From an uncultured Muribaculaceae bacterium (lineage in GTDB: Bacteria; Bacteroidota; Bacteroidia; Bacteroidales; Muribaculaceae): 37,877 nt of DNA. Shown one piece after another: positions 6,979 to 36,576 of the stretch. The notes under the pieces are model-generated. The model saw only the letters and a list, made by a program, of their open reading frames with translations. It ran no database searches and was not told the DNA's origin. The stretch's first letter is position 1. Each line of letters begins with the position of its first letter. Location: assembly GCA_964407165.1 (NCBI GenBank), contig CAYOUJ010000021.1, forward strand, positions 1 through 37,877, read 5' to 3'. The position numbers were made by a program, and so were the translations under genes.

Positions 6979-7881
6979 ATGAAGAAATTTTCAATATATT
7001 TCGCAACCATAGTGGCCGTTCTGGGCCTCGCAAGCTGCGCCCAGGACAAGGATCCTGTATACCAGGCTCCCACCACCTTCGTCCTCAATGAGCCGGTGTT
7101 CCAGAACGACTACTACCAGCTCCAGGAGGGCAACTCCTTCTACGTATTCTGCTCGCAGCCTGACTACGGCTACTCCGCAATCACCAACTACGCCCTGCAG
7201 GTATCACTTACCCAGGACTTCGCCACCTACGAGGAGATAGCCTCCGCAGGCACCGGCACATCCGCCGCCATGCAGATCAAGGACGACAAGATGGCCCTCG
7301 CCATCTGCCAGCTCTACGGCGTCGAGACCGAGGAAGACATGGCCCAGTTTAACGCCGAGACCGGTGTCAAGGTCTACATCCGCGCCCACGCCTGGCTCAC
7401 CGGCGTCGAGAGCTCCAACATCGTCTCCAACGTCGTCTCCCTCAACAAGGTGATGCCCTACTTCGCAGTCCCGCAGCCCGACTTCATCTACCTCGTCGGC
7501 AAGCCCGAGGGCTGGGTAGGCCCCACCGAGAGCAACGCCGCCCACTATGCTGACTGGAAGCTCCTCGAGAACCAGGACGAGATCGGCAGCAAGGTATACC
7601 ACGGCACCTTCTACATCGGCAACGGCGCCGACGGCGAGGCCATGTTCCGCTTCTATACCGCCCTGACCGGCTGGGACGACGACTCCTACGGCTCTCAGGA
7701 GGAAGACAACCCCATCGACCAGTTCTTCACCGACAACCTCTGGCAGTATAACCTCGTCAAGGGCAAAGGCTCCTTCAACTTCCCCGACTGGCCCGGCGGC
7801 GTCATGGTCATCACCGTCGACATGAGCACCGACAACCCCTTCGTGGTTATCGAGGGCCGTCCCGGCGAAACGCTTGAGTAA
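6979..7881 (+). CDS. SusE-like outer-membrane lipoprotein (PUL accessory surface protein)
   Basis: 300 aa with a lipoprotein signal (VLGLASCAQD). It occupies the position after susD, and the N-terminal region is typical of the SusE N-domain. The call rests on position and topology rather than on conserved catalytic motifs. Confidence 0.55.
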   Translation: MKKFSIYFATIVAVLGLASCAQDKDPVYQAPTTFVLNEPVFQNDYYQLQEGNSFYVFCSQPDYGYSAITNYALQVSLTQDFATYEEIASAGTGTSAAMQIKDDKMALAICQLYGVETEEDMAQFNAETGVKVYIRAHAWLTGVESSNIVSNVVSLNKVMPYFAVPQPDFIYLVGKPEGWVGPTESNAAHYADWKLLENQDEIGSKVYHGTFYIGNGADGEAMFRFYTALTGWDDDSYGSQEEDNPIDQFFTDNLWQYNLVKGKGSFNFPDWPGGVMVITVDMSTDNPFVVIEGRPGETLE

Positions 7882-9506: not shown

Positions 9507-9830
9507 ATGCAACGCACATCCTCCATAGCAAAGATTGGCCCCGCCATACACCGCGTGGCTCCGGAGGCCGAGGTCATCCTCTTCGGCTCCCAGGCCCGTG
9601 GCGATGCCCGTCCCGACTCCGACATCGACATCCTTATCCTCTGGGACACCGGCAGAGAGCGGCTGACATGGGAAGAGAAAAACCGCCTGATTGACCCCTT
9701 GACAGAGATTGAGATGCAAGATTTCGTGAGCATTAACGCTGTCATGTATTCCCGTTACCAGTGGGATCACCGACCTTGCGTCAACCCTTTCTACTTAAAT
9801 ATCCAACGCGAAGGTATAAAACTAACTTAA
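9507..9830 (+). CDS. Nucleotidyltransferase (MNT/Pol-beta superfamily), antitoxin-like partner of the HEPN protein
   Basis: 107 aa. It carries the minimal nucleotidyltransferase motif LFGSQARGDARPDSDIDILIL (GS-x9-13-DxD). It lies 9 nt upstream of the HEPN gene. Confidence 0.8.
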   Translation: MQRTSSIAKIGPAIHRVAPEAEVILFGSQARGDARPDSDIDILILWDTGRERLTWEEKNRLIDPLTEIEMQDFVSINAVMYSRYQWDHRPCVNPFYLNIQREGIKLT

Positions 9831-9839
9831 CCATATATT

Positions 9840-10232
9840 ATGGAAGATCAAATACTACAAGATCTGATAAATTATAGAATTAATAGTGCGCATCGTGCCC
9901 TGATTGACTGCGCTACTATGATAGAAACGGGAGGCTACAACTGTGCCATCAACCGAGCCTACTACTCATGTTTCTATGTGCTTAATGCTTATTTTCTAAA
10001 GAAAGGTATAAGCACCAAAACCCACGATGGCATCAAGCAGATGCTTCATCTATATCTTGTGCGCAACGGTCTTGTGACCGTAGAGGAGGGTCGCACTTAT
10101 ACTCGTCTGCTTTCTGACCGAGTGAACTGCGATTACGATGATTACTTCGATAGTGGTGCTGAGGAGGCAGAAAGATACAGACAATTTGCTGAGGCTTTCA
10201 TCGCTAAAATTGAAAAACTTATCAAAGATTAA
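9840..10232 (+). CDS. HEPN domain protein, toxin-like partner of the MNT protein
   Basis: 130 aa. The helical HEPN (PF05168-like) pattern is visible, including the SDRVNCDYDD motif (R-x3-DYD). This locus is markedly AT-rich compared with its flanks. Confidence 0.78.
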   Translation: MEDQILQDLINYRINSAHRALIDCATMIETGGYNCAINRAYYSCFYVLNAYFLKKGISTKTHDGIKQMLHLYLVRNGLVTVEEGRTYTRLLSDRVNCDYDDYFDSGAEEAERYRQFAEAFIAKIEKLIKD

Positions 10233-10364: not shown

Positions 10365-11507
10365 ATGGCAAAGACTACCAAGAAACCCCTGGATCCCCGC
10401 GAGGCCAAGCTTGCCGCGCTCAGCCAGGCCATGGACAAGATAGAGAAAGACTTCGGCCGCGGCTCCATCATGAAGCTCGGCGACCACTCCGTCGAAAACG
10501 TCGAGGTAATCCCCACCGGCTCCATAGGACTCAACCTTGCCCTCGGCGTCGGCGGATACCCCCGCGGCCGCATCATCGAGATCTACGGCCCCGAGTCCTC
10601 CGGCAAGACCACCCTCGCCATCCACGCCATCGCCGAGGCACAGAAGGCCGGCGGCATCGCCGCAATGATCGATGCCGAGCACGCCTTCGACCGCTTCTAC
10701 GCCGAAAACCTGGGCGTCGACGTCAACAACCTGCTCATCTCCCAGCCCGACAACGGCGAGCAGGCTCTTGAGATTGCCGAGCAGCTCATACGCTCCTCCG
10801 CCATCGACATCATAGTCATCGACTCCGTGGCAGCCCTAACACCCAAGAGCGAGATCGAGGGCGAGATGGGCGACCGCAACGTGGGCCTCCAGGCGCGCCT
10901 CATGTCGCAGGCCATGCGCAAGCTCACCGGCACTATCGCACGCACCAACACCACCTGCATCTTCATCAACCAGCTCCGCGACAAGATAGGCGGCGCACTC
11001 TTCGGCCCCACCGAGACAACCACCGGCGGCAACGCACTCAAGTTCTACTCCTCCGTCCGCATCGACATACGCCCCAGCAGCGCGCTGAAAAACGGCGACG
11101 AGATGTACGGACGCAAGACCAAGGTGAAGGTCGTAAAGAACAAGGTGGCGCCCCCCTTCCGCCGCTGCGAGTTCGACATACTCTTCGGTGAGGGCATCTG
11201 CAAGGCCGGCGAGATCCTCGACATGGGCGTTGACAACGGCATCATCCAGAAGAGCGGCTCGTGGTTCAGCTACGACGGCTCGAAGCTCGCCCAGGGCCGC
11301 GACGCCGCCATAAGCGTCATCAAGGACAACCCCGAGCTGGCCGACGAACTGGAGGCCAAAATCATGGCCGCCATCGCCGCCGCCGAAGACGGCAAGCCCA
11401 AGAAGGCCGCCAAGAAGGAGGAGAAGCCCGCCACCGACCTCGACACCGCCGACCTCGACGAACTCGACACCGAGATCCCCGACGACTTCCTCATGGAAGA
11501 AGACTAA
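10365..11507 (+). CDS. recA: Recombinase RecA
   Basis: 380 aa. The Walker A motif GPESSGKTT, the RecA core ([45 protein letters not shown]) and the L2 loop are present. The C-terminus carries a long Lys-rich then acidic tail. Confidence 0.97.
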
Positions 11508-11512
11508 TCCCC

Positions 11513-11575
11513 AAAATCATCGACAATCATCGATAAAAATCGATAATTATCGATAATAATCGATTATCATCGACT
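11513..11575. repeat. Six tandem 10-bp units, each centred on ATCGA(T/C) (consensus wwnATCGAyA), between recA and ribH
   Basis: The units read atcatcgaca, atcatcgata, aaaatcgata, attatcgata, ataatcgatt, atcatcgact. The helical-turn periodicity and phased A/T tracts are seen directly in the sequence. Confidence 0.8.
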
Positions 11576-11590
11576 CCAACTCGACACCCC

Positions 11591-12070
11591 ATGTCACAAA
11601 ACATCCCCATATCCCCCGTCCCGGCCCTCGACGACGTCCGCGTCTCAGTCATCGCCGCCGAGTGGAACGCCGAGGTCACTGACCGTCTCCTCGCCTCCGC
11701 CGTCGACACCCTGCGCCGCTACGGGCTCACCTCCGAAGACATCGACGTCTTCCGCGTCCCAGGCACCATAGAGCTGACCTTTGCCGCATCCCAGGTCATC
11801 GAGGCCTCCATCGCCGACGCCGTCATCGTCATCGGCTGCGTCGAGCGCGGCGACACCCCCCACTTCGACTACGTCTGCCAGAGCGTCACCCAGGGCGTCA
11901 CCGCCCTCAACGCCGACTGCGACGTCCCCGTCATCTTCTGCGTCCTCACCGTCGACACCCATCAGCAGGCCCTCGACCGCTGCGGAGGCCCCGCCGGCGA
12001 CAAAGGCATCGAGGCCGCCGAAGCCGCCCTCAAGATGGTCGGCTTCAAGCGCCTCGTCGAGTCAATGTAA
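11591..12070 (+). CDS. ribH: 6,7-dimethyl-8-ribityllumazine synthase
   Basis: 159 aa. The lumazine synthase core motifs are present: VIAAEWNAEVTD, VPGTIELTFA, and VIVIGCVERGDTPHFDYVC (the conserved RG-T-HF-YV motif). Confidence 0.85.
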   Translation: MSQNIPISPVPALDDVRVSVIAAEWNAEVTDRLLASAVDTLRRYGLTSEDIDVFRVPGTIELTFAASQVIEASIADAVIVIGCVERGDTPHFDYVCQSVTQGVTALNADCDVPVIFCVLTVDTHQQALDRCGGPAGDKGIEAAEAALKMVGFKRLVESM

Positions 12071-12086
12071 CTCGCTGTCATATCAC

Positions 12087-12140
12087 GCGAAGAAACAAAG
12101 GAATAAAAAGAAATTTCTTTTTATTCCTTTGTTTCTTCGC
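12087..12140. terminator. Long perfect hairpin: a bidirectional intrinsic terminator after ribH
   Basis: 24-nt perfect inverted repeat gcgaagaaacaaaggaataaaaag / ctttttattcctttgtttcttcgc with a 6-nt loop. The stem is flanked by an A/T run that gives U-tracts on both strands. Confidence 0.8.
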
Positions 12141-12190
12141 ATGATGGTCAGTGAAATTAGTTGTATATAGCCTCCACTTCATACATTTAA

Positions 12191-12315
12191 TTTTCAGGAC
12201 GGGTCACATTGTCAACCTTGTCAGGACGCATGTCAACCAACACAGGACAATTGTCAACTTTATCAGTAAAAACTGTCAACCATTTTCAGGACGGGTCAAT
12301 TTTCAGGACGGGTCA
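12191..12315. repeat. Operator-like repeat array: 3x ttttcaggacgggtca (two directly tandem), 4x TGTCAAC, 5x CAGGAC
   Basis: 17-mer copies at 12191, 12283 and 12300. CAGGAC-n3-TGTCAAC occurs twice, 22 bp apart. The array sits between the ribH terminator and the promoter of the downstream module. Confidence 0.8.
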
Positions 12316-12350
12316 AAATGAACCAATATGATTAACTAAGATTAACAAAT

Positions 12351-12358
12351 GGGGGGGG
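12351..12358. repeat. G8 homopolymer tract about 20 nt upstream of the -7 promoter element
   Basis: caaatGGGGGGGGtaaatttagc. This is a simple-sequence tract located in the -33 region of a promoter. Confidence 0.9.
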
Positions 12359-12377
12359 TAAATTTAGCAAAATTTCG

Positions 12378-12385
12378 TAAATTTG
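12378..12385 (+). promoter_or_regulatory. -7 promoter element TAAATTTG (tttcgTAAATTTGccg) for the TerB-like/SPFH module
   Basis: Perfect TAnnTTTG match. The 13-mer tttcgtaaatttg is shared with the ispB promoter at 18011. A second TAAATTT lies 20 nt upstream. Confidence 0.55.
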
Positions 12386-12564
12386 CCGTGTCTTTACCTC
12401 CCGGCGGCTTGCACACGGTCGCCGGACGACATGCTGTAAAGTGTTTGTTCACCCTGCATGGGAGGATGACGTTTCCCGCGCTTTCCAGAGATGTCTCAGA
12501 CCATGAAACGAGTTCCACCCCGGGCCCAGGGAGACGATCCCGGATATCAAACCAACATTACCAA

Positions 12565-13734
12565 ATGACTTTAGCTGATTTTGAGAAGTTTGTAGATCTT
12601 ACCCTTGCCGACGGAGTCATCACGCCGCAGGAGCAGCAGGCTCTTGTCAAGCGGGCTGCAGAGCTTAACCTTTCGCCGGACGAGGTGCAGATTATCATCG
12701 AGGCGCGCGTGCATGAGATGAACCAACGCAAGGAGCAGCAGGCCAAGACGGCTGCAGCGCCGGCACCGGCGGCATCCAACAAGGCTGGCAACGTGCGCAA
12801 ATGTCCCGCCTGCGGCGCCCCTATAACGGGCACCAGCACATCGTGCCCCGAGTGTGGGCATGTGTTTACCGGCGTCGCCGCCGTAAGCAGCGCCACGCGC
12901 CTGTTTGAGATGATACAGGAGGCCCAGACCCGTGCGTCAAAGGCGCTCACCGAGCATGAGGCCCGTAAAAATCAGCGACTGGCTGACCTCGACGTAAAGC
13001 AGGCCGAGTCAACCAACCTACTCACCGAGAAGCAGAACGAGGGGGGCACGATGGCCAAGATAATGGCGTCGAAGACCAAGCAGCAGGCCGAGCGCGCCGC
13101 CCTGGCCCAGAAACACGCTCAGGAGCGACAGGATCTCGTGCGCGAGCTTGAGAGAAGCCGCGCCGCCCTGAGCAAGGACCTGATGGAGGAGAAGCGCCAA
13201 ATCATCAAGAACTTCCCGGTGCCCAACACCCGTGAGGATCTCATGGAGCTGCTGGCCATGGCCTCGTCGAACGCCTACGACAACGACGGCGTCATCGGCC
13301 CGGAGGAGGAGGTGTGGATACAGAAGACCGACCAGATCTATACCAAGATCAAGGCTGTGAGCAAAAACGACAAAGACCTTCTCGAGGAGGCCACAAACGT
13401 GGTGATCGGCCTGATGAGCCGTCTCCCCAACGCCTACAAGCACTTCACCTCCCTTCCCACAGGATATGAGTCCCGCATGGCCGAGCAGGTGAAAGCCGCC
13501 CGCGAGAACAAGAAGGAGATGAAGAAGGAGGCTCTGAGGGACTCGCTGATGGCCTACAAGACGTGGATCGTCGGCTCCGGCGCGGCCGTCTTGTTCGGAC
13601 TGCTCCTGATGCTCTGCGGCGCCGCTATTTTCGGATTCCTGATTTTTGTCGTCGGCCTTTGCGTGGGCGGCAAGATGATAAAGAAAGGCTACGACAACTA
13701 CAACGTCGAGAAGCGCAACATAGAGGCATACTGA
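12565..13734 (+). CDS. Membrane-anchored protein: TerB-like N-terminal domain, C4 zinc ribbon, long coiled coil, C-terminal transmembrane segment
   Basis: The start is taken at the ATG for MTLADFEKF, because the track ORF from 12349 begins with non-coding-looking residues. It contains a TerB/DjlA-N-like helix pair (LADGVITPQEQQALVKRAAELNLSPDEV) and a zinc ribbon CPACG-x11-CPECG. About 200 aa are charged coiled coil, and the C-terminus is hydrophobic (VLFGLLLMLCGAAIFGFLIFVVGLCVGG). Confidence 0.6.
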   Translation: MTLADFEKFVDLTLADGVITPQEQQALVKRAAELNLSPDEVQIIIEARVHEMNQRKEQQAKTAAAPAPAASNKAGNVRKCPACGAPITGTSTSCPECGHVFTGVAAVSSATRLFEMIQEAQTRASKALTEHEARKNQRLADLDVKQAESTNLLTEKQNEGGTMAKIMASKTKQQAERAALAQKHAQERQDLVRELERSRAALSKDLMEEKRQIIKNFPVPNTREDLMELLAMASSNAYDNDGVIGPEEEVWIQKTDQIYTKIKAVSKNDKDLLEEATNVVIGLMSRLPNAYKHFTSLPTGYESRMAEQVKAARENKKEMKKEALRDSLMAYKTWIVGSGAAVLFGLLLMLCGAAIFGFLIFVVGLCVGGKMIKKGYDNYNVEKRNIEAY

Positions 13735-13735
13735 C

Positions 13736-15232
13736 ATGGGGATATTCGGAAAAGGCAAAGGCGGCGGCTTGATGAACGTCATCCGCTGCGACGAACAAGA
13801 ATATCTGGTGTGGAAGTGGCGCCCTGCCGGGCAGGACGCCAACACCACATCGCGTGAGAACGCCATACGCTGGGGCAGCTCGCTGCGCGTGAAAGACGGC
13901 GAGGTGGCCGTGTTTGTCTACAAGCAGAAAGCCGGCGCTATGCAGGAGTTTATCGAAGGACCCTTCGACGAGATCCTCAAGACTGCCAACCTCCCGATCA
14001 TATCCAAGATCGTGGGGATGGCTTACGGCGGCGAAAGCCCGTTCCAGGCCGATGTCTATTTCATCAACCTCGCGGGTATCATCCAGGTGAAGTTTGCCAT
14101 CCCATACTTCGATGTGCAGGACCCGCGCTTCCCCGATATGTCGGTGCCGGTGGCCACGGGTGGCACCATCTCGTTCAAGATTGACGACTACAAGGCTTTC
14201 ATCAAGGTCAACCGCCTGATCAACTTTACCCTCGACGACTTCAAAAATCAGATCAAAGACGCCGTGGTGCGCCGCGTCAAGGGCAACATCACCAACGTGC
14301 TCTACGCAATAAATCTGCCTTTAGTGCAGATCGAGCGCAACATAGAGGGGATCGGCGACGCTATCAAAGAGAAGCTGAAGGTCGACCTGGAGGACTTCGG
14401 CGTCACCCTGCGCCGCTTTGACCTCAGCCGCATAGAGCCTGACAAGGAGAGCGAGAACTGGCTCAAGCTCCAGCAAGTGACGGCCGAATTCTCGATGCGC
14501 TCCACGGCAACCAACCAGAATATTGCCATCGACACGGCCAACGCCCAGGCACAGGCAAACATACAGAACATCCACGACATGCAGGCCATCAACACGCAGA
14601 ACATGTCGGAAACGCTGCGCATACAGCGCGAGGAGATGCAGCGCGCCCAGCGCGCCCAGACCGAGCAGGCCGCATACGCGCAGAAACTGCAGAGCGAGCA
14701 GGCCAACATTGGCGCGTTCTCCGTCGGGCGCCAGGCCGACGTGCTTGCTGCCGCGGCCAACAATCTTGGCCAGATGGGCAACATGAACATGGGCTCGGGC
14801 AATGGCGGCTTCAATCCGGCCGGCATGATGACCGGCATGGCCGTCGGCGGCGCTGTCGGCCAGCAGATGGCCCAGATGATGGCGCAGATGAACAACGGCC
14901 AAATGGGCGGTGGCGCCGCGCCTACTCCCCCGCCGGCGCCTGCGGCACCCACACCGCCGCCCATGCCCGGACAGCTGAGCACCACCCCGGATTATTATCT
15001 TGCCGAGAACGGCCAACAAAGCGGGCCGTTCAGCGTGGCGCAGCTCAAGCAGCTCGTCGACGCCGGGAAGATGACCGCACAGTCGATGGTCTGGAAAAAC
15101 GGCATGCCCCAGTGGGCGCAAGCCGCACAGTTGTCAGAGCTGCAGGTGCTCTTCATGCCCGCCGGCTCCACCGCGGCCCCCGGCATGCCCCCCGTGCCCC
15201 CACCTCCCGCAGGAATGCCTCCAATGCCCTAA
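13736..15232 (+). CDS. SPFH/Band-7 (Band_7_1 family, flotillin-like) protein with a C-terminal DUF4339 (GYF-like) domain and a Pro-rich tail
   Basis: 498 aa. The N-terminal MGIFGKGKGGGLMNVIRCDE..LVWKW region is characteristic of the PF13421 family (B. subtilis YdjI-like). It has a central Gln/Ala-rich coiled coil. The C-terminus reads YYLAENGQQSGPFSVAQLKQLVDAGKMTAQSMVWKNGMPQWAQA (DUF4339). Its start is 2 nt after the previous stop. Confidence 0.75.
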   Translation: MGIFGKGKGGGLMNVIRCDEQEYLVWKWRPAGQDANTTSRENAIRWGSSLRVKDGEVAVFVYKQKAGAMQEFIEGPFDEILKTANLPIISKIVGMAYGGESPFQADVYFINLAGIIQVKFAIPYFDVQDPRFPDMSVPVATGGTISFKIDDYKAFIKVNRLINFTLDDFKNQIKDAVVRRVKGNITNVLYAINLPLVQIERNIEGIGDAIKEKLKVDLEDFGVTLRRFDLSRIEPDKESENWLKLQQVTAEFSMRSTATNQNIAIDTANAQAQANIQNIHDMQAINTQNMSETLRIQREEMQRAQRAQTEQAAYAQKLQSEQANIGAFSVGRQADVLAAAANNLGQMGNMNMGSGNGGFNPAGMMTGMAVGGAVGQQMAQMMAQMNNGQMGGGAAPTPPPAPAAPTPPPMPGQLSTTPDYYLAENGQQSGPFSVAQLKQLVDAGKMTAQSMVWKNGMPQWAQAAQLSELQVLFMPAGSTAAPGMPPVPPPPAGMPPMP

Positions 15233-15244
15233 AACATTAACATC

Positions 15245-15598
15245 ATGATAAACAATTTCAACGCCGTAGACCAGCTGGTAGAGTTCGGCCTGGGAATAGC
15301 CGTGGCACAGCAGATGGTCAAGATGATGAACACCACCATGGCCGGGGTCAACGCCCCCACGGTGAAAAATCCCTCTATCGACACATTCCGCATGCCCAAC
15401 CCAAACGGGCATCTTGTGCAACTCTATGTCGGCACCTCCGAGGGTGTGGCCGGGCCGTTTGACGAGAGCCAAATCTCCGCCCTGCTTGCAGCGCACAAAA
15501 TCACCGCCGACACCCTGGCATGGATGCCCGGCATGGAGACGTGGACGCAAGCCTCAAACATACCGTTGGTCAACAAATACATCCTTTTGCAGTCATGA
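15245..15598 (+). CDS. Small stand-alone DUF4339 (GYF-like) domain protein
   Basis: 117 aa. LYVGTSEGVAGPFDESQISALLAAHKITADTLAWMPGMETWTQASNIP is paralogous to the C-terminal domain of the preceding gene. Confidence 0.6.
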   Translation: MINNFNAVDQLVEFGLGIAVAQQMVKMMNTTMAGVNAPTVKNPSIDTFRMPNPNGHLVQLYVGTSEGVAGPFDESQISALLAAHKITADTLAWMPGMETWTQASNIPLVNKYILLQS

Positions 15599-23780: not shown

Positions 23781-23838
23781 AAACAGGGAAGGCAACCGAT
23801 CATTATGCTTGGCCGCTGCGCGGCCAAGAGGTAAGCAA

Positions 23839-25056
23839 ATGGAAATAAATCTCACTGACATACCCGCCGACGTGCAGCAGGCCAAGGCCCGCTACGGAAT
23901 CGTCGGCAACTCGTCGGCGCTCATCGCCGCCGTCAGCCGTGCCATCCAGGTGGCGCCCATCGACCTTAGCGTGCTCATAACAGGCGAGAGCGGCACCGGC
24001 AAGGAGTTCTTTCCCAAGATTATACACGGCGGCAGCGCGCGCAAGCACGGCAAGTATATCGCCGTGAACTGCGGCGCCATCCCCGAAGGCACCATCGACT
24101 CCGAGCTGTTCGGCCACGAGAAAGGCTCTTTCACCGGCGCCGTGGCCACTCGCAAGGGTTACTTCGAGGAGGCCGACGGGGGCACCGTCTTCCTCGACGA
24201 GGTGGCCGAGTTGCCGCTGACCACGCAGGCGCGCCTGCTGCGCGTGCTCGAGAGCGGCGAGTTTATGAAGGTCGGGTCGAGCACCGTGCAGAAGACCAAC
24301 CTGCGCATCGTCGCCGCCACCAACGTTGACATGGCGCGGGCCGTGGCCCAGGGCCGATTCCGCGAGGATCTTTACTACCGCCTCAGCACAGTGCAGATAC
24401 AGCTGCCGCCGTTGCGCGAGCGCGGCCGCGACGCCCTGCTGCTCGCCCGCAAGTTTGCCGCCGACTTCGCCGAGCGCTACCGCACGGACCCCATCACCCT
24501 GGACGACAGCGCCCGCGATGCCATCCTCCGCTACCGCTGGCCCGGCAACGTGCGCCAGCTCAAGAACGTCATCGACCAGGTGTCGCTCTTCGAAGGGGGG
24601 CGCCGCGTCGACGCCGAGCGGCTCGAGCAATATATGCCGTCGCTGACAGAGAGCTACACCCCAATGGTAACCAACGCGACCGGGGGCGGCTCCGGGCGCT
24701 ACGACATGGAGCGCGAGGCGCTCTTCGGCCTCATCTTCCGGCTGCAGGAGCGCATCGCCGCGCTCGAGGAGGCGCTGAAAGGCGCCCCGCAGCAGATAGC
24801 CGAGCAAACCGAGCCGGAGACCGTCACAGCCGAGCCGGTGCCCACCGCCACGCTGGTGCGCTACGACCCCGACCTGCACCGCTTCCATCCCGTCGGAGAA
24901 ACACCCAAGACCCTCGAGCAGACTGAGAAGGAATTGATACGCACCACCCTCGAGCGCAACAACGGGCGCCGCAAGGCCACCGCCGCCGAGCTCAACATCT
25001 CCGAGCGCACACTCTACCGCAAAATCAAGGACTACGGCCTCGAAGACGTCTTCTAA
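23839..25056 (+). CDS. Sigma-54-dependent transcriptional activator lacking an N-terminal sensory or receiver domain (PspF-like architecture)
   Basis: The start is taken at the ATG for MEINLTD. The AAA+ sigma-54 interaction domain begins immediately ([12 protein letters not shown], Walker [15 protein letters not shown]-like GSFTGAV, Walker [16 protein letters not shown]). A long Pro/Glu-rich linker and a C-terminal Fis-type HTH ([27 protein letters not shown]) follow. Confidence 0.85.
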
Positions 25057-28590: not shown

Positions 28591-28640
28591 TGAAGAAATT
28601 TTGAACTGCACAACATGTTTTGCACCATAAGTACCTCCCT

Positions 28641-28690
28641 CGAAATCCCGAAATCCCGAAATCCCGGGATTTCGGGATTTCGGGATTTCG
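28641..28690. repeat. Perfect 50-bp palindrome (GAAATCCC)x3-(GGGATTTC)x3 centred on CCCGGG
   Basis: cgaaatcccgaaatcccgaaatcccgggatttcgggatttcgggatttcg, seen directly in the sequence. It is the right-hand partner of the 26973 element. Confidence 0.95.
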
Positions 28691-28696
28691 ATAGCG

Positions 28697-28717
28697 GGGG
28701 TTATTTGCGGAGGGTGC
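28697..28717. repeat. 21-bp direct repeat gggttatttgcggagggtgcg (copy 1). Copy 2 at 28933..28953 spans the stop codon of the giant gene.
   Basis: The two copies are exact and 236 bp apart. They bracket the terminator hairpin and a ccggcaaatttgccgg palindrome. Confidence 0.85.
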
Positions 28718-28870
28718 GCTCGGCGAAACCAATACAGGCGGTAGTAGAATTTTTAGGGAAATTATTTGCCTGTTTAAAAGAAAGTTGATACCTTTGCAAT
28801 TACGAAAACCGGCAAATTTGCCGTTATTCGTAAATGCAAAGGGGATACTTATAAAAAATCGCAAAAAATC

Positions 28871-28935: not shown

Positions 28936-31900
28936 TTATTTGCGGAGGGTGCGGGAACGGGCGGTGCCGTCGGAGTAGACGGTCTGCTCGACGACGACGG
29001 TGCCGGGGGCCGGGTTGGCGATCTGCACGCCCTGGAGGTTGAAGTAGCGGACGGCGACGACGGTGGCGTCGTCGGCGCCGACAGCCTCGATTCCGTCGAT
29101 GACGTTGCCGAGCTTGATGGTGTAGACGCGGACGAGGTCGCCGGCACGGAGGGTGATGGTGCCGGTGCGGCCGGAGGCCTCCTGCAGCGGGTGGATTATG
29201 CCCTCGTCGGCGTCGATGAAGAATTCCTCGGAGGCTTCCCATGTCAGGCCCGGAAGGTATGCGACGTGTATCTTGTCGGTGACGCCCTCGGCGGTGTCAT
29301 CGCCGCTGAACACAAGCAGTGCGGCGTGGAAGTTGGCCTCGGGCACGTCGGCGAAGGCCTTGAGCGTGGGCATTGCGTACTGGTGGTAGTCCCAGAGGTC
29401 GCTCAGGGACGTGGTGATAAGCTCACGGTCGGTCAGGCCCTTGGCGAACGAGGCGGAGTACTCGTCTTGCACGAGCGCGGGGTTGACATCGGTGCTATAG
29501 TAGCAGGAGTCGACGCTGACCTTGGTCTGCGTGGAGGTGCAGTACATGGCAGCGGCGCAGGTGGTGCCGTCGGTGCAGTTGATCTTGCCGTAGGCTATGT
29601 TGCGGCGTAGCGTGGCGCCGGTGGAGGCGCCGCAGATGCCGCCGACGAACATCTCGCCGGTGAGGGTGCCGTAGTTTGCGCAGTCGTGGATGTTGCCGGT
29701 GGTGGCGTATCCGCTGATGCCGCCGACGTGGCCGTAGGCGGTGGTGGTGCTCTGCCGGTCGGCGCGGGTGGAGGTGACGCTGCCGAGGTTGATGCATGAG
29801 CTGATGTGCGACGACTGGGAGGTACCCGCGATGCCGCCGGTGCGGTTGCCCACGCTCATGACGGTGCCGTAGTTGACGCAGTCGGTGATGGTGCCGGAGA
29901 TGTTTCCGAAGACGCCGCCGACGGCGTAGGCGTTATTGGGGGTGGCGGAGCCGTTGACCACGGTGGCGTAGTTGACAAGGTTGCGGTAGACGGCGGAGGC
30001 TCCGTTGCCGTTGCCGATGACGCCGCCGAGGTCGTAATAGTTGCTGTAGACCGAGTCGCCGTAGTTTACGCAGTTGGTGACTACGTTGGCATACGAGCCG
30101 GCCTGGCCGATGACGCCGCCGACGTAGGTCTTGTTGCCGATCACCGTGCCGTAGTTGACGCAGGAGTCGACGGTGCATGCTGCGGTGAATGAGCCGAAGC
30201 AGCCGCCGAGATAGTTCTCGCCGCGGACGTCGACGTGGTTGACGCAGTTGATGAACGTTCCGGAGGCGCTGTAGCAGATGCCGCCGGCGCCGGCGGAGGT
30301 GAATACCAGCTCGCCGAAGTTCTCGAGGTCGCGGTAGAGGCCGCCGCCGGTCATGGTGCTGGCGATGCCGCCGATATATCCGGAGGCGGTGATGACGCCG
30401 TAGTTCTTGCAGTCGATCATGTCGCCGCCGCAGCGTGCGGCGATGCCGCCGGCAGTGGTCTTGCCGCAGGTGATGTTGCCGTAGTTGACGCACCCCTTGA
30501 CGAGCGAGCCTGCCTGTGTCTGCTCGACGATGCCGCCCATGGAGGTGCCGGAGCAGTCGAGGTTGGCGCGGTTGACGCAGTTGATGATGCTGCCGCCGGC
30601 GTAGAGATAGCGGACGAGGCCGCCGACGTCGGCTGCCGTGGTCATGGTGGTGATGAGCGTGGCGTCTTCGTTGACCACGTTCTCAATGGTGCCGTAGCAC
30701 TTGTCGACCAGTGCGGAGACGTAATAGTAGGCGGCGATGGAGCAGGTGCCCAGGCGCAGGTTGCGCACGGCGCCCTTGTCGGTGAGGGTGCCTATGATGG
30801 CCACGTACTGATAGGGCTTGACAGACCGGTCGGTGCGGTCGATGGTGAGGTAGTTGATGCTGTGGTTACGTCCGTCGATGATGCCGCCGAAGGAGTTGCT
30901 GTCGAAGCCGATGGGTGTGAACTGCGGTATGCCGGTGAAGTCGAGGTCTGCCGTTATAGCGAAGTGGTTGCCCTCGAAGGTCAGGCCGTAGGTGTTGGTG
31001 TAGTCAGAGAGTGTGATCAGGTCGGCTGCGCAGGTGATGAGGAAGGGGTCGGCCTCGGTGCCGCTGCCGGCGAAAGGTGCGAAGAAAGCCGTGACGGCGT
31101 ATTCGCGGGTGAACGCGCCGGAGGTGCCGACGAGGGTGATGCTCTGGGGCTGTACGCAACCGGTGACCTTGAGGGTGTCGCCGGCGATGCTGAAGTATTC
31201 GGAGGCGGGTATGCTCCACGTAAGGCCGTCGGCCTTGGAGAGCTGTGCGTTGGTGGTCATGGAGCCTACGGTCTGCCCGTCGCCGAAGGTGACGTACATC
31301 GAGCGGAGGGTAGAGGCTGCGGTTTCCGAGGCGCGGGCCTTGAGCACGGGATACTTGCCGGCGGCGTAGTCGAATATGTCGGCGGAGAGGCCCTCGATGG
31401 CCGTTCCGGTGGTCAGCACGGAGGTGTTGACCGCGGATATGCCGTCGCGGGGGAGTCCGTTCATCGCGCCGAGGGTGCAGAGCTGGTTGTCATAGTAGCA
31501 GGCCTCGAGCACGGCGGGAGCCGAGGCTACCTGGCCGCCGAAGGCGCCGCAGTAGGTGCCGCCCTCGCAGATTACGATGCCGGTGTTGACGCACCCGCGC
31601 AGCTGTGCCGCGGAGGTGACGCCGCCGATGATGCCGGCGGCGATGGTGTAGGCCTGCACGGTGCCCTGGTTGACACAGTTCTCGATGACGCAGGCATCGG
31701 CGCCGCTGGTGGCGTCGCTGTTGAAGACTATGCCCGCTGCGCCGCCGGTGGAGGCGTATTCGTAGGCGTTGGTGACGGCGTCGGTGTGGACGTAGCCGTC
31801 GTTCTGGCAGCCGGATATGGTGGAGCCGCCGTACATCTGCCCGACGATGCCGGCAGCGTATCGGTAGCCGGCGGTGATGGTGCCGGCGTTGTAGCAGTTT

Positions 31901-34900
31901 ATGGCACGGGCGCCGGCATTGAGGCGGGTGCAGATGCCGCCGACGTAGTTGGCGGAGACGGTGATGTCGGCGTAGTTGCGGCAGTTTTCGACGGTGCCGT
32001 TGCAGATGGCCACGAAAGCGGCGAGGCCGGCGTAGCCCTTGAGCGAGCATGAGGCGTCCATCGTGATGTCCTTGAGGTGGCCGTTGGGGCCGAGGATGCC
32101 CACGAGGGCGACGGTCTGGCGCGACGAGGAGGCGACGGGGCTGCCGCTGCTGTCGAGCGTGAGGCCGTTCATCGTCCAGTTTTTGATGGTGTAGCCGCGG
32201 CCGTCGAGGGTGGCGTCGAAGTAGTGGGTCTCGTTGGTGTCGTCGCCGATACCGTAGAAGTCGGTGACGCCGGTAAGGTCGATGTCGTTGCCCAGGACGA
32301 AGTAGTCGCCCGTGTAGTGGAGGCCGTTGGAGGTAACGCCCGTGTTGAGAGTGCGCAGGTCGTCGACGGTGCGGAGCACGAAGGGGTCAGCCTCGGTGCC
32401 GCTGCCGGGGAACTGCGAGGGGGAGACGTTGAGCTGGTACAGGCGGGTGAACGTGCCGGCGTCAGTGGTGAAGCGTGCGGAGATGAACTCCTTGCCTTGG
32501 TCGCCGGTGAGCGTCACGTCGGAGCCGCTGATGGTCAGGGCACCATGAGAGAGGACGGGCGCGTTGTCGTCGTCGAGGAGATACCAGGCCACGTCCGAGG
32601 GGGTGTCGAGGGTGAACGCGGTCTTAACATAAGAGGAGGTCTGCCCCTGGCCGAGATGTATGGCGGCGCCGAAATATCCGGCGACGTCGGCGGCCATCCA
32701 CTTGGGCGTGGGATAGCGGCCGGCGGTGAACGTCCACATATCCGAGCCGAAGCCCTCGGGACCGTTGGCCGTGGTCAGGGAGTCGGTGGCGGTGTAATGG
32801 TCGGCGGTGAGGGTGCCGGCCATCTGTCCGTCGACGTACACATTATTAAATATGGTGCCGTCGTTGATGACACCGGCGACGCCGTTGTCGACGAGCGTCT
32901 GGCCGTTGCCGTAGACCTGGCCGGTGGAGATGACGCGTGTGAGGGTGTTATTGTTTGAGGCGAGGTTGCTGAGATATCCGGCGATGCCGCCCAGGCGTGT
33001 GCCGGTGCTGGTGCCCTGGACATAACATGATGCGACGCAGTCTTCGATGGTGGCGCCGGAGGAGTATCCGACCAGGCCGCCGGCATAGCCGTTGGAGCTG
33101 GTGGCGACGGTCTGTATCATCACGGAGGCGGCGCATGAGCGCAAGGTGCAATAGGTGACCAGGTTACCGGCGATGCCGCCGACCCAGCCGTAGGAGCTGG
33201 TGTCATACATCGTGCCCAGCACGTAGCAGTTTTCGATGAGCACGGGTGAGGCGGAGGCGGAGGAGCAAGCGCCGACTATGCCGCCGAGGCCGTGCTCGAT
33301 GCTGGTGGAGGGCACTGACTGCTTGGCGGAGATCTGTGCGGAGCAGTCTTTGATGGTGCCGCGGTAGATCATGCCGGTGATGCCGCCGAGCTGGCCCAGG
33401 CCGGTGAGGTAGCCCACGTAGTGGCAGCCGCTGACGTATGTGCTGTAGCCGACGATGCCGCCGGCGTAGCGCTCGTAGGTGACGAGCTGGCCGCTGACGG
33501 AGCAGTCTTCGATGCGACCTAAGGAGTAGCCGGCGACGAAGCCTGAGTAGCGGCCGTAGGTCAGCATGCGGGCCGTGGTCATCTTGACACCCCGGACGAC
33601 GCCGGAGGCGCCGACGTAGCCGAAGATGCCGGTGTATTCGGCGCTGCGCTCGACGTAGAAGTTCTTGATGGTGTAGTTGCCGCCGTCGTAGGTGCCGTTG
33701 AAGCAGTTGGTGGCGTCAGCGCCGACAGGGCGGTACTGCCCGACGTAAGAGGCGAAGTCGATGTCGGCTGTCTGCTTGAAATATTTGCCCTCGTAGGTCA
33801 GGCCGGAGGCCACGGCGGCGGCGAGCAGGTCGAGGTCGGCCGTGGAGGCTATCTGGTATGGGTCAGCCTCGGTGCCGCTGCCGGTGAAGGAGTAGGCCTG
33901 CGAGGAGGGGAGGGTGAGCACGCCCGGCTCGACGGAGATGGTCGAGCTGTTCATGCCGTAGAGACAGCTGGTGGAGGCCGACGAGGTGGTGGCGGCGAAG
34001 ACGCCCCAGGGGCCGAAGCCGAAGCCGGTGGCGCTGAGCGTGCCGGTGATGTTGCCCGGGATGCCCTTGTTGCCGTAGGTGCCGGTGCCCCACTCGGCGG
34101 GGTATGTGACGTAGGACGTCGCCGTCAGGCTGGTGTAGCTCATCATCTGCGGCTCCAGGGTGAAGGTGCCGTCGGCGTTAAGGAAGACGGTCACCTCGCG
34201 GCCGGAGTTGGCCAGGTTGGCGATGAGAGCCTGCGTGGGCGTGGTCTGCTTGACGAAGACGGGATACGAGGTGTCGGAGAAGGTCTGTGCCGAGAGGTCG
34301 CGGAGGCTGCCCGTGAGCGTGGCGTTGGAGGGGTAGAGGCGCATGGTGGTGCTCATGGCCAGGGCGGAGCCGACGTATTCCGAGGTCTTGTCGGTGACCA
34401 GCACGGCCCAGCCGCTGCCGAGGGTGAAGCACCCTTCGGCGTCGTCCCAGGTGAAGACGAGGTTCTTGGCCGTGCTGTAGCCCCACTGCACGGCGTCGAA
34501 ATAGACCATCTCGAAGTCGCCGTAGGGGCTCATCGTGTATACCACCTGGTGGGGGAAGGTTATGGTGGCGGAGGTGGCGTCGTAGGTGCCGGTGAGGGTG
34601 CCGAGGTTGTAGAAATTGGTGAGCGTGGCCGTGCCGTCGGTGCCGACGGTGAGCTGCGGCATGGCTGTGAACCCTTCGCGGGCGGTGCCGGTCTGTATGT
34701 AGTCATACTCGGCATAGTAGCCCGTGGGGCTTGCGGGGGCCGACTCTGCGCGGTGGCTGAGCGCGGGGCTGTGTGTGTCGAGCGCGCCGGGGAGGACAAT
34801 CTCTTGGAATCGCTCGTCGGCGACCGACTGCGCGGAGGCGCCGAGGGCGCACACGGCCATGGCGACGGCCATGGCTGCGGCGCGTAGGTTGAGGTAGTAA

Positions 34901-34908
34901 TTGTGCAT
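28936..34908 (-). CDS. Giant (1990 aa) T9SS-secreted cell-surface protein with many GLUG-motif beta-helix-like repeats and a C-terminal T9SS sorting domain (CTD)
   Basis: It has a signal peptide (MAVAMAVCALGASAQS). There are dozens of degenerate repeats carrying GGI(A/V)G / GGLVGY / YxGGIxG motifs (GLUG-like). The C-terminus (VVAVRYFNLQGVQIANPAPGTVVVEQTVYSDGTARSRTLRK) matches the Por/T9SS type-A sorting domain pattern. The long plus-strand ORFs across this region are antisense artefacts. Confidence 0.85.
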   Translation of the reverse strand: MHNYYLNLRAAAMAVAMAVCALGASAQSVADERFQEIVLPGALDTHSPALSHRAESAPASPTGYYAEYDYIQTGTAREGFTAMPQLTVGTDGTATLTNFYNLGTLTGTYDATSATITFPHQVVYTMSPYGDFEMVYFDAVQWGYSTAKNLVFTWDDAEGCFTLGSGWAVLVTDKTSEYVGSALAMSTTMRLYPSNATLTGSLRDLSAQTFSDTSYPVFVKQTTPTQALIANLANSGREVTVFLNADGTFTLEPQMMSYTSLTATSYVTYPAEWGTGTYGNKGIPGNITGTLSATGFGFGPWGVFAATTSSASTSCLYGMNSSTISVEPGVLTLPSSQAYSFTGSGTEADPYQIASTADLDLLAAAVASGLTYEGKYFKQTADIDFASYVGQYRPVGADATNCFNGTYDGGNYTIKNFYVERSAEYTGIFGYVGASGVVRGVKMTTARMLTYGRYSGFVAGYSLGRIEDCSVSGQLVTYERYAGGIVGYSTYVSGCHYVGYLTGLGQLGGITGMIYRGTIKDCSAQISAKQSVPSTSIEHGLGGIVGACSSASASPVLIENCYVLGTMYDTSSYGWVGGIAGNLVTYCTLRSCAASVMIQTVATSSNGYAGGLVGYSSGATIEDCVASCYVQGTSTGTRLGGIAGYLSNLASNNNTLTRVISTGQVYGNGQTLVDNGVAGVINDGTIFNNVYVDGQMAGTLTADHYTATDSLTTANGPEGFGSDMWTFTAGRYPTPKWMAADVAGYFGAAIHLGQGQTSSYVKTAFTLDTPSDVAWYLLDDDNAPVLSHGALTISGSDVTLTGDQGKEFISARFTTDAGTFTRLYQLNVSPSQFPGSGTEADPFVLRTVDDLRTLNTGVTSNGLHYTGDYFVLGNDIDLTGVTDFYGIGDDTNETHYFDATLDGRGYTIKNWTMNGLTLDSSGSPVASSSRQTVALVGILGPNGHLKDITMDASCSLKGYAGLAAFVAICNGTVENCRNYADITVSANYVGGICTRLNAGARAINCYNAGTITAGYRYAAGIVGQMYGGSTISGCQNDGYVHTDAVTNAYEYASTGGAAGIVFNSDATSGADACVIENCVNQGTVQAYTIAAGIIGGVTSAAQLRGCVNTGIVICEGGTYCGAFGGQVASAPAVLEACYYDNQLCTLGAMNGLPRDGISAVNTSVLTTGTAIEGLSADIFDYAAGKYPVLKARASETAASTLRSMYVTFGDGQTVGSMTTNAQLSKADGLTWSIPASEYFSIAGDTLKVTGCVQPQSITLVGTSGAFTREYAVTAFFAPFAGSGTEADPFLITCAADLITLSDYTNTYGLTFEGNHFAITADLDFTGIPQFTPIGFDSNSFGGIIDGRNHSINYLTIDRTDRSVKPYQYVAIIGTLTDKGAVRNLRLGTCSIAAYYYVSALVDKCYGTIENVVNEDATLITTMTTAADVGGLVRYLYAGGSIINCVNRANLDCSGTSMGGIVEQTQAGSLVKGCVNYGNITCGKTTAGGIAARCGGDMIDCKNYGVITASGYIGGIASTMTGGGLYRDLENFGELVFTSAGAGGICYSASGTFINCVNHVDVRGENYLGGCFGSFTAACTVDSCVNYGTVIGNKTYVGGVIGQAGSYANVVTNCVNYGDSVYSNYYDLGGVIGNGNGASAVYRNLVNYATVVNGSATPNNAYAVGGVFGNISGTITDCVNYGTVMSVGNRTGGIAGTSQSSHISSCINLGSVTSTRADRQSTTTAYGHVGGISGYATTGNIHDCANYGTLTGEMFVGGICGASTGATLRRNIAYGKINCTDGTTCAAAMYCTSTQTKVSVDSCYYSTDVNPALVQDEYSASFAKGLTDRELITTSLSDLWDYHQYAMPTLKAFADVPEANFHAALLVFSGDDTAEGVTDKIHVAYLPGLTWEASEEFFIDADEGIIHPLQEASGRTGTITLRAGDLVRVYTIKLGNVIDGIEAVGADDATVVAVRYFNLQGVQIANPAPGTVVVEQTVYSDGTARSRTLRK

Positions 34909-36329: not shown

Positions 36330-36367
36330 AACATGAGAGGTGTAAGTCAAAGATGTGTCTTTGGCGG

Positions 36368-36375
36368 CAAATTTA
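36368..36375 (-). promoter_or_regulatory. -7 promoter element TAAATTTG (minus strand; gcgTAAATTTGccgcc) about 40 nt upstream of the repeat-protein ATG, inside a 14-bp inverted repeat
   Basis: The motif matches. It lies in the loop between aagatgtgtcttt and aaagacacacatctt. Confidence 0.5.
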
Positions 36376-36576
36376 CGCAAAATATTTCAATAAAGACACA
36401 CATCTTTAAACTTTTCCCTGAAATTGTTATAGGCCGTATATCCCCTATATGGCTTATACTCCATGGCACCGGTTTGATTTAACTAAATTTAGCATTAATT
36501 TTTAACCACCTTTACCGATTTATGCCGTATATTTGCCCAGGTTTAACAAATCTATATACCACCAAAAATTTCAACC

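What the first reader, a model, noticed from the sequence alone, without database searches (positions are those of the whole stretch)
12191..12315. Dense array of direct repeats (3x ttttcaggacgggtca, 4x TGTCAAC, 5x CAGGAC) immediately upstream of the module promoter
Within 125 bp there are three copies of a 16-17-mer (two exactly tandem at 12283 and 12300), four copies of (c/a)(a/t)TGTCAAC(c/t), and two copies of the composite CAGGAC-n3-TGTCAAC spaced 22 bp (two helical turns) apart. Repeat density of this kind is typical of multi-site operators for an oligomerising regulator. It also resembles iteron or arm-type site clusters. No gene for a cognate DNA-binding protein is obvious nearby. The sensor-less sigma-54 activator at 23839 is the nearest regulator.
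Basis: seen in the sequence. Interest (0 to 1): 0.55.

Follow-up and report, generated by a model that had tools for sequence, protein, structure and literature searches.

The report
Orphan end of an IS3 transposon
The dense repeat cluster is the leftover right-hand end of an IS3-family insertion sequence, made of several transposase-binding sites with no transposase gene beside it; it is not a conserved control region for the neighbouring operon, so it is largely ordinary.

Summary
The repeats are real. There are three exact copies of ATTTTCAGGACGGGTCA, four of TGTCAAC and five of CAGGAC, far above chance, and two independent assemblies give the same sequence.

The composite TGTCAACcATTTTCAGGACGGGTCA (12274-12298) is the terminal inverted repeat of IS3-family insertion sequences. 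It bounds orfA/orfB (rve, NF033516) elements in Bacteroidota, including an annotated IS3 on a Spirosoma plasmid, and it ends in the family's CA-3' tip.

In this IS3 clade the right end, but not the left, carries extra IR-like units inside the tip. The units have the form TGT[C/A]AAC-n5/6-CAGGA[C/T] and are spaced about 21 or 31 bp apart. The window has four such units at 25, 47, 68 and 89 nt from a tip at 12298, in the same orientation.

The window contains no IS3 transposase, no inverted partner repeat and no integrase. Orthologous Zn-ribbon/SPFH-GYF operons contain no copy of the motif.

Best reading: an orphaned IS3 right end, that is a set of transposase-binding sites, and not an operator.

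Two things remain unexplained: the two extra perfect 17-mers, and a second orphan array with 21-bp spacing in an unrelated metagenome contig.

The parts
12190..12206 (+). Extra copy A of the outer 17 nt of the IS3 inverted repeat (ATTTTCAGGACGGGTCA). It is not preceded by the inner TGTCAAC block and lies just inside the outermost unit.
   Evidence: Exact match. Identical to the last 17 nt of the IS3 IRs in L013, L064, L056 and L053. Comparable subterminal copies of the outer block occur in L089 (gACGGGTCAa), L092 (TAGGACAAAG) and L024.
12210..12230 (+). Subterminal IR-like unit 1: TGTCAAC-cttgt-CAGGAC-gca (21 nt), starting 89 nt from the tip at 12298.
   Evidence: The outermost unit of the IS3 right ends in L064, L056 and L060 sits at the same distance (87-90 nt) from the tip.
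12231..12251 (+). Subterminal IR-like unit 2: TGTCAAC-caaca-CAGGAC-aat (21 nt).
12252..12273 (+). Subterminal IR-like unit 3: TGTCAAC-tttat-CAGTAA-aaac (22 nt). Its outer block is degenerate.
12274..12298 (+). Complete terminal inverted repeat in IRR orientation (interior to the left, tip CA-3' at 12298): TGTCAACCATTTTCAGGACGGGTCA.
   Evidence: 25/25 identical to the Echinicola IS end (L053, L048, L011) and 24/25 to the IRRs of L064 and of the Chitinophagales IS. Inverted IR pairs of this sequence bound orfA/orfB IS3 elements in L013, L064 and L089.
12299..12315 (+). Extra copy C of the outer 17-mer, an exact tandem duplicate lying immediately outside the canonical tip.
   Evidence: Its origin is unexplained.

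Best explanation
Positions 12190-12315 are the orphaned right end (IRR side) of an IS3-family insertion sequence.

The 25-mer at 12274-12298 is a complete terminal inverted repeat. By analogy with IS2 and IS911, its inner block TGTCAAC(C) would be the site bound by the N-terminal HTH of the OrfAB/OrfA transposase. Its outer block CAGGACGGGTCA-3' would be the cleavage domain that ends in the reactive CA-3'.

Three further IR-like units lie just inside it at 21-22 bp intervals, which is two helical turns. They resemble the accessory units that intact members of this Bacteroidota IS3 clade carry on their right end only. In the intact element these units would presumably load several transposase molecules cooperatively on the donor end.

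In this window the transposase genes and the left end are missing. On its own the array is therefore inert. It could at most bind transposase supplied in trans by IS copies elsewhere in the genome. It is not a dedicated operator of the Zn-ribbon/SPFH-GYF operon.

Shown: sequence identity to IS3 IRs, the shared architecture, the absence of a transposase, and the absence of the motif from orthologous operons.

Inferred: protein binding, the bipartite roles of the two blocks, and the way the element was lost.
For: 1. Dispersed distribution. The 17-mer occurs at 14 or more contig ends of one Chitinophagales MAG and at several sites in Echinicola. In both it is preceded by TGTCAAC-n, exactly as at 12274-12298.
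2. It bounds IS3 elements. Inverted pairs of this sequence flank orfA plus orfB with rve and rve_3 domains and NCBIfam NF033516 'IS3 family transposase' scores of 240-261 bits (cutoff 160). The elements are L013 5495-6806, L064 563-2110 and L086 about 822-2545. On the Spirosoma sp. KNUC1025 plasmid the match lies 40 bp after a CDS annotated 'IS3 family transposase'.
3. The tips follow the family's TG...CA rule (PMC4433286).
4. Shared architecture. The right ends of L064, L056 and L060 have three composite units, at 25, 57-59 and 87-90 nt from the tip. L086 has six TGT[C/A]AACC units spaced 21, 32, 21, 32 and 32 bp. Left ends have only the terminal unit. The window has four units at 25, 47, 68 and 89 nt in the same orientation (0 of 2000 shuffles).
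5. Block conservation. Between window units the two blocks are 92% identical and the linkers 31%. The same blocks are the ones conserved across the family's IRs.
6. No recombinase in the window. tblastn with five IS3 OrfA/OrfB queries gives nothing better than E = 0.38. Pfam shows chromosomal housekeeping genes and no integrase or transposase.
7. Orthologous operons lack the motif.
8. Published support. [quoted passage not shown]
Against: - The two extra perfect copies of the outer 17-mer, one interior at 12190 and one tandem outside the tip at 12299, are not part of the canonical end seen in intact relatives. Three 100% identical copies are odd for a decaying relic.
- IS-attached arrays seen here mostly have about 31-bp spacing and three units. 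The window has 21-bp spacing and four units. The only other pure 21-bp array (L080) is also orphaned.
- No intact IS with exactly this right end was recovered.
- The rest of this MAG could not be searched, so it is unknown whether a cognate IS exists in the genome.
- No empty-site allele is available to define the insertion boundaries or a target-site duplication.
- Transposase binding to the units is inferred, not measured.
Confidence: 0.82

Rival explanations
1. Exapted operator. The IR-derived units are kept as a multi-site operator or enhancer for the Zn-ribbon/SPFH-GYF operon. They would be bound either by an oligomerising host regulator or by an IS3 OrfA-type HTH protein supplied in trans.
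For: - The array lies about 63-190 bp upstream of a good Bacteroidetes -7 box at 12378-12385.
- The units are phased at 21-22 bp, and the blocks are conserved while the linkers are random.
- Three perfect 17-mers argue against free decay.
- A second orphan array with 21-bp spacing exists in L080.
Against: - Four orthologous operons contain no TGTCAAC and no IR-like sequence, and most have no comparable upstream intergenic region.
- No OrfA-like or other candidate regulator gene lies nearby.
- The block-versus-linker pattern is already a property of the intact IS ends, so it need not reflect selection after orphaning.
Confidence: 0.07
2. Part of a still-mobile, non-autonomous IS3-derived element. 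This would be a MITE-like or one-ended unit present in several copies in this genome and moved by a transposase encoded elsewhere.
For: - The terminal IR and its tip are intact and the 17-mers are perfect.
- Solo or truncated ends of the same family occur in other genomes (L028, L059, L024, L080).
Against: - No inverted partner exists anywhere in the 37.9-kb contig, even allowing 8 mismatches in 25.
- All units point the same way.
- The interior side holds ribH and recA, which are housekeeping genes.
- The copy number in the genome could not be tested, because the MAG is not in the genome collection searched.
Confidence: 0.07
3. Iterons of a replication origin, or arm-type sites of a tyrosine-recombinase element boundary.
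For: - The direct repeats of about 21 bp resemble iterons.
- In L080 a similar array lies beside TGGTCATTT/ATTTTGACC repeats and an AT-rich stretch that looks like an origin.
Against: - The context is chromosomal: a SusC/D locus, recA, ribH, queC/queF and pdxA.
- The window has no rep, par or integrase gene.
- The sequence identity is to IS3 terminal repeats.
Confidence: 0.02
4. Chance clustering or an assembly artefact.
For: The window is a MAG contig, and IS ends often break or confuse assemblies.
Against: - Two independent assemblies give an identical sequence.
- The shuffle tests reach the observed counts in 0 of 100 and 0 of 2000 trials.
Confidence: 0.01

Closest known systems
IS3-family insertion sequences (IS911, IS2, IS3, IS150; here the Bacteroidota/Proteobacteria clade whose IR is TGACCCGTCCTGAAAAtgGTTGACA, for example the annotated IS3 on Spirosoma sp. 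KNUC1025 plasmid NZ_CP087141.1)
   Same: - The terminal 25-mer is identical or nearly identical to the IRs that bound orfA/orfB (rve) elements.
- The tips follow the TG...CA rule.
- The layout is bipartite, with an inner binding block and an outer cleavage block.
- Accessory IR-like units lie on the right end only, as in L064, L056, L060 and L086.
   Different: - There is no orfA/orfB, no left IR and no recognisable target-site duplication, so this is an end and not an element.
- It has four units at 21-bp spacing, whereas the intact relatives seen here usually have three at about 31 bp.
- It has two supernumerary copies of the outer 17-mer.
Multi-site transposon ends of other DDE (retroviral-integrase-type) transposons: Mu (L1-L3/R1-R3), Tn7 (TnsB sites), IS21 (own knowledge)
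   Same: Several direct, phased copies of the transposase-binding sequence lie inside the terminal copy, and the two ends are asymmetric.
   Different: - The associated transposase is IS3-type OrfAB, not MuA, TnsB or IstA.
- The units occur on one end only.
- The array is much shorter, at about 90 bp.
Solo IS ends, IS remnants and MITEs
   Same: It is a fragment of an IS without a transposase, sitting in an AT-rich intergenic region.
   Different: MITEs have two inverted ends and many copies. Here there is one end, with all units direct, and the copy number is unknown.
Plasmid iterons and multi-site operators
   Same: Direct repeats of about 21 bp lie on one helical face, upstream of a promoter.
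   Different: There is no cognate Rep or regulator, the array is not conserved with the operon, and the sequence is that of a transposon end.

Membership tests
IS3-family terminal inverted repeat (as a sequence) | The same sequence occurs as an inverted pair bounding an orfA/orfB transposase with an rve DDE domain. | tested here: met
   - L013 5495-6806, L064 563-2110 and L086 about 822-2545, with NF033516 scores of 240-261 bits.
- An annotated IS3 transposase lies next to the match in NZ_CP087141.1.
- Window 12274-12298 is 24-25/25 identical to these IRRs.
IS3-family terminal inverted repeat (as a sequence) | Tips are 5'-TG...CA-3'. | tested here: met
   The window copies end in ...GGGTCA. 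The relatives' IRLs begin TGAC... or TGTC.... The rule is stated for the IS3-family member ISSau2 in PMC4433286.
IS3-family terminal inverted repeat (as a sequence) | A bipartite end, in which the inner block is bound by the OrfAB N-terminal HTH and the outer roughly 11 bp is a cleavage domain. | not testable with these tools
   The conservation pattern fits: TGTCAAC and CAGGA..CA are conserved across family IRs and across the window units. Binding has been shown only for IS2 and IS911 (PMC3299598, PMC7780238).
Intact IS3-family insertion sequence | orfA/orfB transposase genes lie between the ends. | tested here: not met
   tblastn of five OrfA/OrfB queries against the window gave a best E of 0.38. 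Pfam finds no rve or HTH_Tnp domain in any major ORF.
Intact IS3-family insertion sequence | A second, inverted IR and a 3-4 bp target-site duplication. | tested here: not met
   The window has no inverted IR copy at 8 or fewer mismatches in 25 or at 3 or fewer in 16. A duplication cannot be defined without a left end.
MITE / dispersed non-autonomous element | Two inverted ends and multiple copies in the same genome. | tested here: inconclusive
   Inverted ends are not met. Copy number could not be tested: the MAG is absent from the genome collection scanned and only this contig is held.
Operator of the downstream Zn-ribbon/SPFH-GYF operon | The sites are conserved upstream of orthologous operons. 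| tested here: not met
   L076-L079 carry the same gene order with 42-45% identity in the first gene, yet have zero TGTCAAC on either strand and no IR-like match.
Operator of the downstream Zn-ribbon/SPFH-GYF operon | A cognate DNA-binding regulator is encoded nearby or linked. | tested here: not met
   No HTH regulator lies adjacent. The sigma-54 activator at 23809-25056 has no -24/-12 promoter to act on near 12300-12565.
Iterons / replication origin | An adjacent rep gene, an AT-rich unwinding region and a plasmid or phage context. | tested here: not met
   The window carries chromosomal housekeeping genes throughout and no rep or par gene.
Known structured RNA | A match to an Rfam covariance model. 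| tested here: not met
   There are no gathering-level hits in the window. At E of 1 or below, only generic hairpin models hit the 12082-12145 palindrome, and nothing hits the array.

The most novel reading that the evidence does not exclude
The Bacteroidota IS3 clade identified here has an asymmetric right end with several helically phased transposase-binding units, resembling Mu or Tn7 ends. I did not find this described for IS3 in the literature I searched. The orphan four-unit, 21-bp-phased version of that end occurs both in this MAG and in an unrelated metagenome contig (L080). The novel reading is that this orphan form is not debris but a retained cis element. It could act as a transposase sink or landing pad, or as an operator that couples the SPFH/GYF operon to the level of an IS3 OrfA-type protein.
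Probability: 0.08. Interest if true: 0.5.

Novelty: new member of a known kind. Interest (0 to 1): 0.2.

Why it matters
The main value is in annotation. A striking repeat array that looks like a regulatory operator is in fact transposon debris, and should not be used to infer regulation of the SPFH/GYF module.

There is a secondary point for transposon specialists. Members of this IS3 clade carry two to five extra IR-like units, spaced about 21 or 31 bp apart, on the right end only. [quoted passage not shown]

Tried and rejected
- **TnpB/omega-RNA right end.** I considered this because the 17-mer sits at element boundaries just after ORFs of 300-450 aa. Those ORFs turned out to be IS3 OrfB (rve) or unrelated host genes such as a thioredoxin-like protein, an MCP and a DUF4143 ATPase.\n- **Tn7-, Mu- or IS21-type end.** Rejected as a membership claim because NCBIfam places the transposases in IS3.\n- **Known RNA.** Rfam found nothing at the gathering threshold. 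At the permissive threshold only miRNA-like hairpin models hit the palindrome.\n- **Viral contigs.** No match to the 25-mer.\n- **Chance matches in the genome scan.** About half of the 72 hits to the 17-mer share no flanking similarity, and by my own estimate about 70 chance hits are expected.\n- **Metagenome scan for the 21-bp tandem composite.** L081-L083, L087 and L088 are one identical sequence, and L084 is a single AT-rich site; none has IS features and I set them aside as probable chance matches. L085 is a 26-unit, 21-nt tandem repeat lying inside a 228-aa ORF; whether it is coding or a chance match is unresolved.\n- **Sigma-54 link.** No -24/-12 match lies near the array, and the window-wide counts are at chance level.\n- **Sigma-70 scan.** It flags TTGACA-n17/18-GACAAT on the minus strand inside the array. 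These are simply the reverse complement of the inner IR block, and Bacteroidota do not use this promoter type (own knowledge).\n- **Crude 8-mer enrichment test (up to 2 mismatches).** It was too noisy to be useful and was replaced by the composite-unit test.\n- **Origin of the two extra 17-mers.** I considered tandem slippage, IS-dimer junction remnants and IEE-type excision (bioRxiv 10.1101/2023.06.07.543989). None could be tested.

Full report
**Observation**

The region reads: ATTTTCAGGACGGGTCA-cat-[TGTCAACcttgtCAGGACgca][TGTCAACcaacaCAGGACaat][TGTCAACtttatCAGTAAaaac][TGTCAACcattttCAGGACGGGTCA]-ATTTTCAGGACGGGTCA-aaatgaacc.

- The 16-mer and 17-mer occur three times exactly. They occur nowhere else in the window, even with 3 mismatches; shuffles gave a mean of 0.23, and 0 of 100 reached 3.
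- TGTCAAC occurs four times in the array, in one orientation, at 12210, 12231, 12252 and 12274.
- CAGGAC occurs five times.
- The last two 17-mers are a perfect tandem.
- Logan assemblies of two different runs reproduce the array exactly. The only difference is a G8 versus G7 run at 12351-12358.

**Context**

The window is an entire 37,877-bp MAG contig with 60% GC.

- Upstream lie recA (10365-11507) and ribH (11591-12070), followed by a 64-nt near-perfect palindrome at 12082-12145.
- Downstream lie a Bacteroidetes-type -7 box TAAATTTG (12378-12385) and a leader of about 170 nt. These are followed by a conserved operon encoding a Zn-ribbon protein (12565-13734), an SPFH+GYF protein (13736-15232) and a GYF protein (15245-15598).
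- The rest of the contig holds chromosomal housekeeping genes: a SusC/D/E locus, an MNT-HEPN pair, polyprenyl synthase, queC, queF, pdxA, acyltransferases and a sensor-less sigma-54 activator. There is no integrase or transposase.
- No Rfam family matches the array.

**What the repeat is**

An exact scan of one genome per bacterial and archaeal species for ATTTTCAGGACGGGTCA returned 72 loci. By my estimate about half are chance matches. The rest form a clear family:

- 14 or more contig ends of one Chitinophagales MAG;
- five sites in Echinicola salinicaeni;
- sites in Flavobacteriales, Cyclobacteriaceae and other groups.

In all of these the 17-mer is preceded by (T)GTCAAC-n, exactly as at window 12274-12298. 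Sequence similarity stops precisely after ...GGGTCA, so the 17-mer is the terminus of a dispersed element.

In L013 and L064 the 25-mer occurs as an inverted pair (24-25 nt, 80-83% complementary). The pairs enclose elements of 1.3 and 1.5 kb that carry orfA plus an orfB with rve and rve_3 domains. These score 247-261 bits on NCBIfam NF033516 'IS3 family transposase', against a cutoff of 160.

A blastn search of plasmids found the same IR 40 bp downstream of a CDS annotated 'IS3 family transposase' in Spirosoma sp. KNUC1025, with a matching left IR. It also found the IR in Ralstonia, Burkholderia and Vibrio replicons.

The tips obey the family's TG...CA rule (PMC4433286). The IR alignment shows that TGTCAAC, (T)TTCAGGA and the terminal CA are the conserved positions. 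This fits the bipartite ends established for IS2 and IS911, which have an inner protein-binding domain and an outer cleavage domain of about 11 bp (PMC3299598, PMC7780238).

**Why there are several units**

A metagenome scan for TGTCAAC-n5-CAGGAC-n3-TGTCAAC returned an IS3 element, L086 (orfB 240 bits on NF033516). Its 310-nt non-coding right end holds six TGT[C/A]AACC units spaced 21, 32, 21, 32 and 32 bp, and the last of these is the terminal IR. Its left end has only the IR.

A composite-unit search (inner block, 4-8 nt, then a CAGGA-like block) gave the following results, with 0 of 2000 shuffles reaching the observed count wherever two or more units were found:

| Locus and end | Composite units | Distance of unit starts from the tip (nt) |
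|---|---|---|
| L064, L056, L060 right ends | 3 | 25, 57-59, 87-90 |
| L064, L013 left ends | 1 | 25 |
| L086 left end | 0 | - |
| Window, tip taken as 12298 | 4 | 25, 47, 68, 89 |

IS3 elements on Bacteroides, Parabacteroides, Phocaeicola and Prevotella plasmids show the same kind of right-end sub-repeats by eye. In L092 and L095 the composite scan also detects them.

Between the window's units the two blocks are 92% identical and the linkers 31%. This pattern is already present in intact elements, so it does not by itself show selection after the end was orphaned.

**What is missing**

- tblastn with five IS3 OrfA/OrfB proteins finds nothing in the window (best E = 0.38).
- No inverted IR copy exists, even at 8 mismatches in 25.
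- The interior side of the array holds ribH and recA.

The array is therefore an end without an element.

**Test of the operator idea**

The Zn-ribbon/SPFH-GYF/GYF operon is conserved in relatives; the closest first-gene homologues are 42-45% identical. I fetched four such loci. None contains a single TGTCAAC on either strand or any IR-like match. In three of them the first gene follows another gene after about 40-50 bp. No sigma-54 -24/-12 element lies near the array.

**Mechanism**

The following is inferred. In the parent IS, the OrfAB N-terminal HTH would bind the TGTCAAC blocks and the catalytic domain would engage CAGGACGGGTCA-3'. Accessory units two or three helical turns apart on the right end would favour cooperative loading on that end. 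[quoted passage not shown] If cognate IS copies exist elsewhere in the genome, it could still bind their transposase.

How the body of the IS was lost is unknown. Candidates include deletion and IEE-type excision of IS3 members (bioRxiv 10.1101/2023.06.07.543989).

**Unexplained**

1. The two supernumerary, perfectly conserved 17-mers: 12190-12206 inside the array and 12299-12315 just outside the tip. Partial parallels exist in L089, L092, L024 and L003.
2. The pure 21-bp spacing. It is shared only with L080, which has four units ending in TGTCAACCGAAATCAGGAAAAGACA. L080 is also orphaned and lies beside iteron-like repeats.

These two points keep a small probability alive for a retained function.

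**Verdict**

This is a known kind of object, an IS3-family end, in a new and slightly unusual orphaned form. It is not an operator of the module. Interest is low. The right-end-only accessory units of this IS3 clade are a modest point worth a specialist's look. I found no description of them in two full-text searches, which is not proof that they are new.

Noticed in passing
window 12351-12358: A poly-G tract is G8 in the window and in the SRR10165008 assembly but G7 in the SRR10165007 assembly. It is the only difference from the window in positions 12111-12580. It ends 19 nt before the TAAATTTG -7 box, so it could be a slipped-strand phase-variation tract or a homopolymer sequencing error.
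   Followed up: partly
window 12082-12145; also 11520-11573, 28627-28704, 28791-28842: Unusually long near-perfect palindromes lie in intergenic regions. The one at 12082-12145 has 32-34-nt arms, 97% complementarity and no loop, and follows ribH. Several have internal short repeats (TCGATAA, GAAATCCC). They are probably bidirectional terminators typical of this genome, and they attract spurious miRNA-precursor Rfam hits.
   Followed up: partly
L008-L012, L014, L020, L031, L047, L052, L056, L062, L068 (Chitinophagales MAG JANPIP01): In most of these copies, the sequence immediately outside the tip of this high-copy IS3 has the same structure but a different sequence: GTGnnnAAA...GTGnnnAAA...TTTnnnCAC (for example tgtgtcaaaatatttgtgccaaataaaattgacaca). 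This suggests insertion targeted at a family of REP-like palindromic elements, as is known for some IS (PMC1525189).
   Followed up: no
L080 2300-2850: The second orphan 21-bp array lies in a non-coding region packed with other repeats: a 22-mer x3, TGGTCATTT x4, ATTTTGACC x4 in inverted orientation, and an AT-rich core. The region looks like a plasmid or phage origin and lies upstream of a 648-aa N6/N4 DNA methylase.
   Followed up: partly
L085 1860-2410 and 2428-2738: There are about 26 tandem copies of a 21-nt unit, TGTCAACaggctCAGGATtgg, which has the same two blocks as the IS3 IR. Next to it are 8.6 copies of a 36-nt repeat. The 21-nt array lies inside a 228-aa ORF with no family hits. 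Whether it is coding, a chance match or related to the IS3 motif is unresolved.
   Followed up: partly
window 9507-10232: A nucleotidyltransferase (MNT) and HEPN gene pair, typical of toxin-antitoxin systems, sits in a low-GC patch (0.48 against 0.60) just upstream of recA.
   Followed up: no
window 28936-34908 (-), 34989-36380 (-), 36874-37797 (-): A 1990-aa ORF and two neighbouring ORFs have no Pfam hit at E of 1e-4 or below.
   Followed up: no
window 12392-12564: A GC-rich leader of about 170 nt lies between the predicted -7 box and the ATG at 12565. It has no Rfam match. An in-frame upstream ATG at 12349 would extend the ORF by 72 codons, but gene callers chose 12565.
   Followed up: partly
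L076-L079 and window 12565-15598: The gene order Zn-ribbon protein, SPFH(Band_7_1)+GYF_2 protein, then small GYF_2 or unknown proteins is conserved in all four relatives' loci fetched, although the first protein is only about 40-45% identical. The module is uncharacterised.
   Followed up: partly
L045 about 7332-7480 (Algoriphagus sp. SE2): The 17-mer is followed directly by a different tandem array, about 6 copies of aaaagagtctc[c/g][g/c]ttgata. Inside it lie several CAGGATTA sub-repeats, and no IS3 orfB is adjacent.
   Followed up: no
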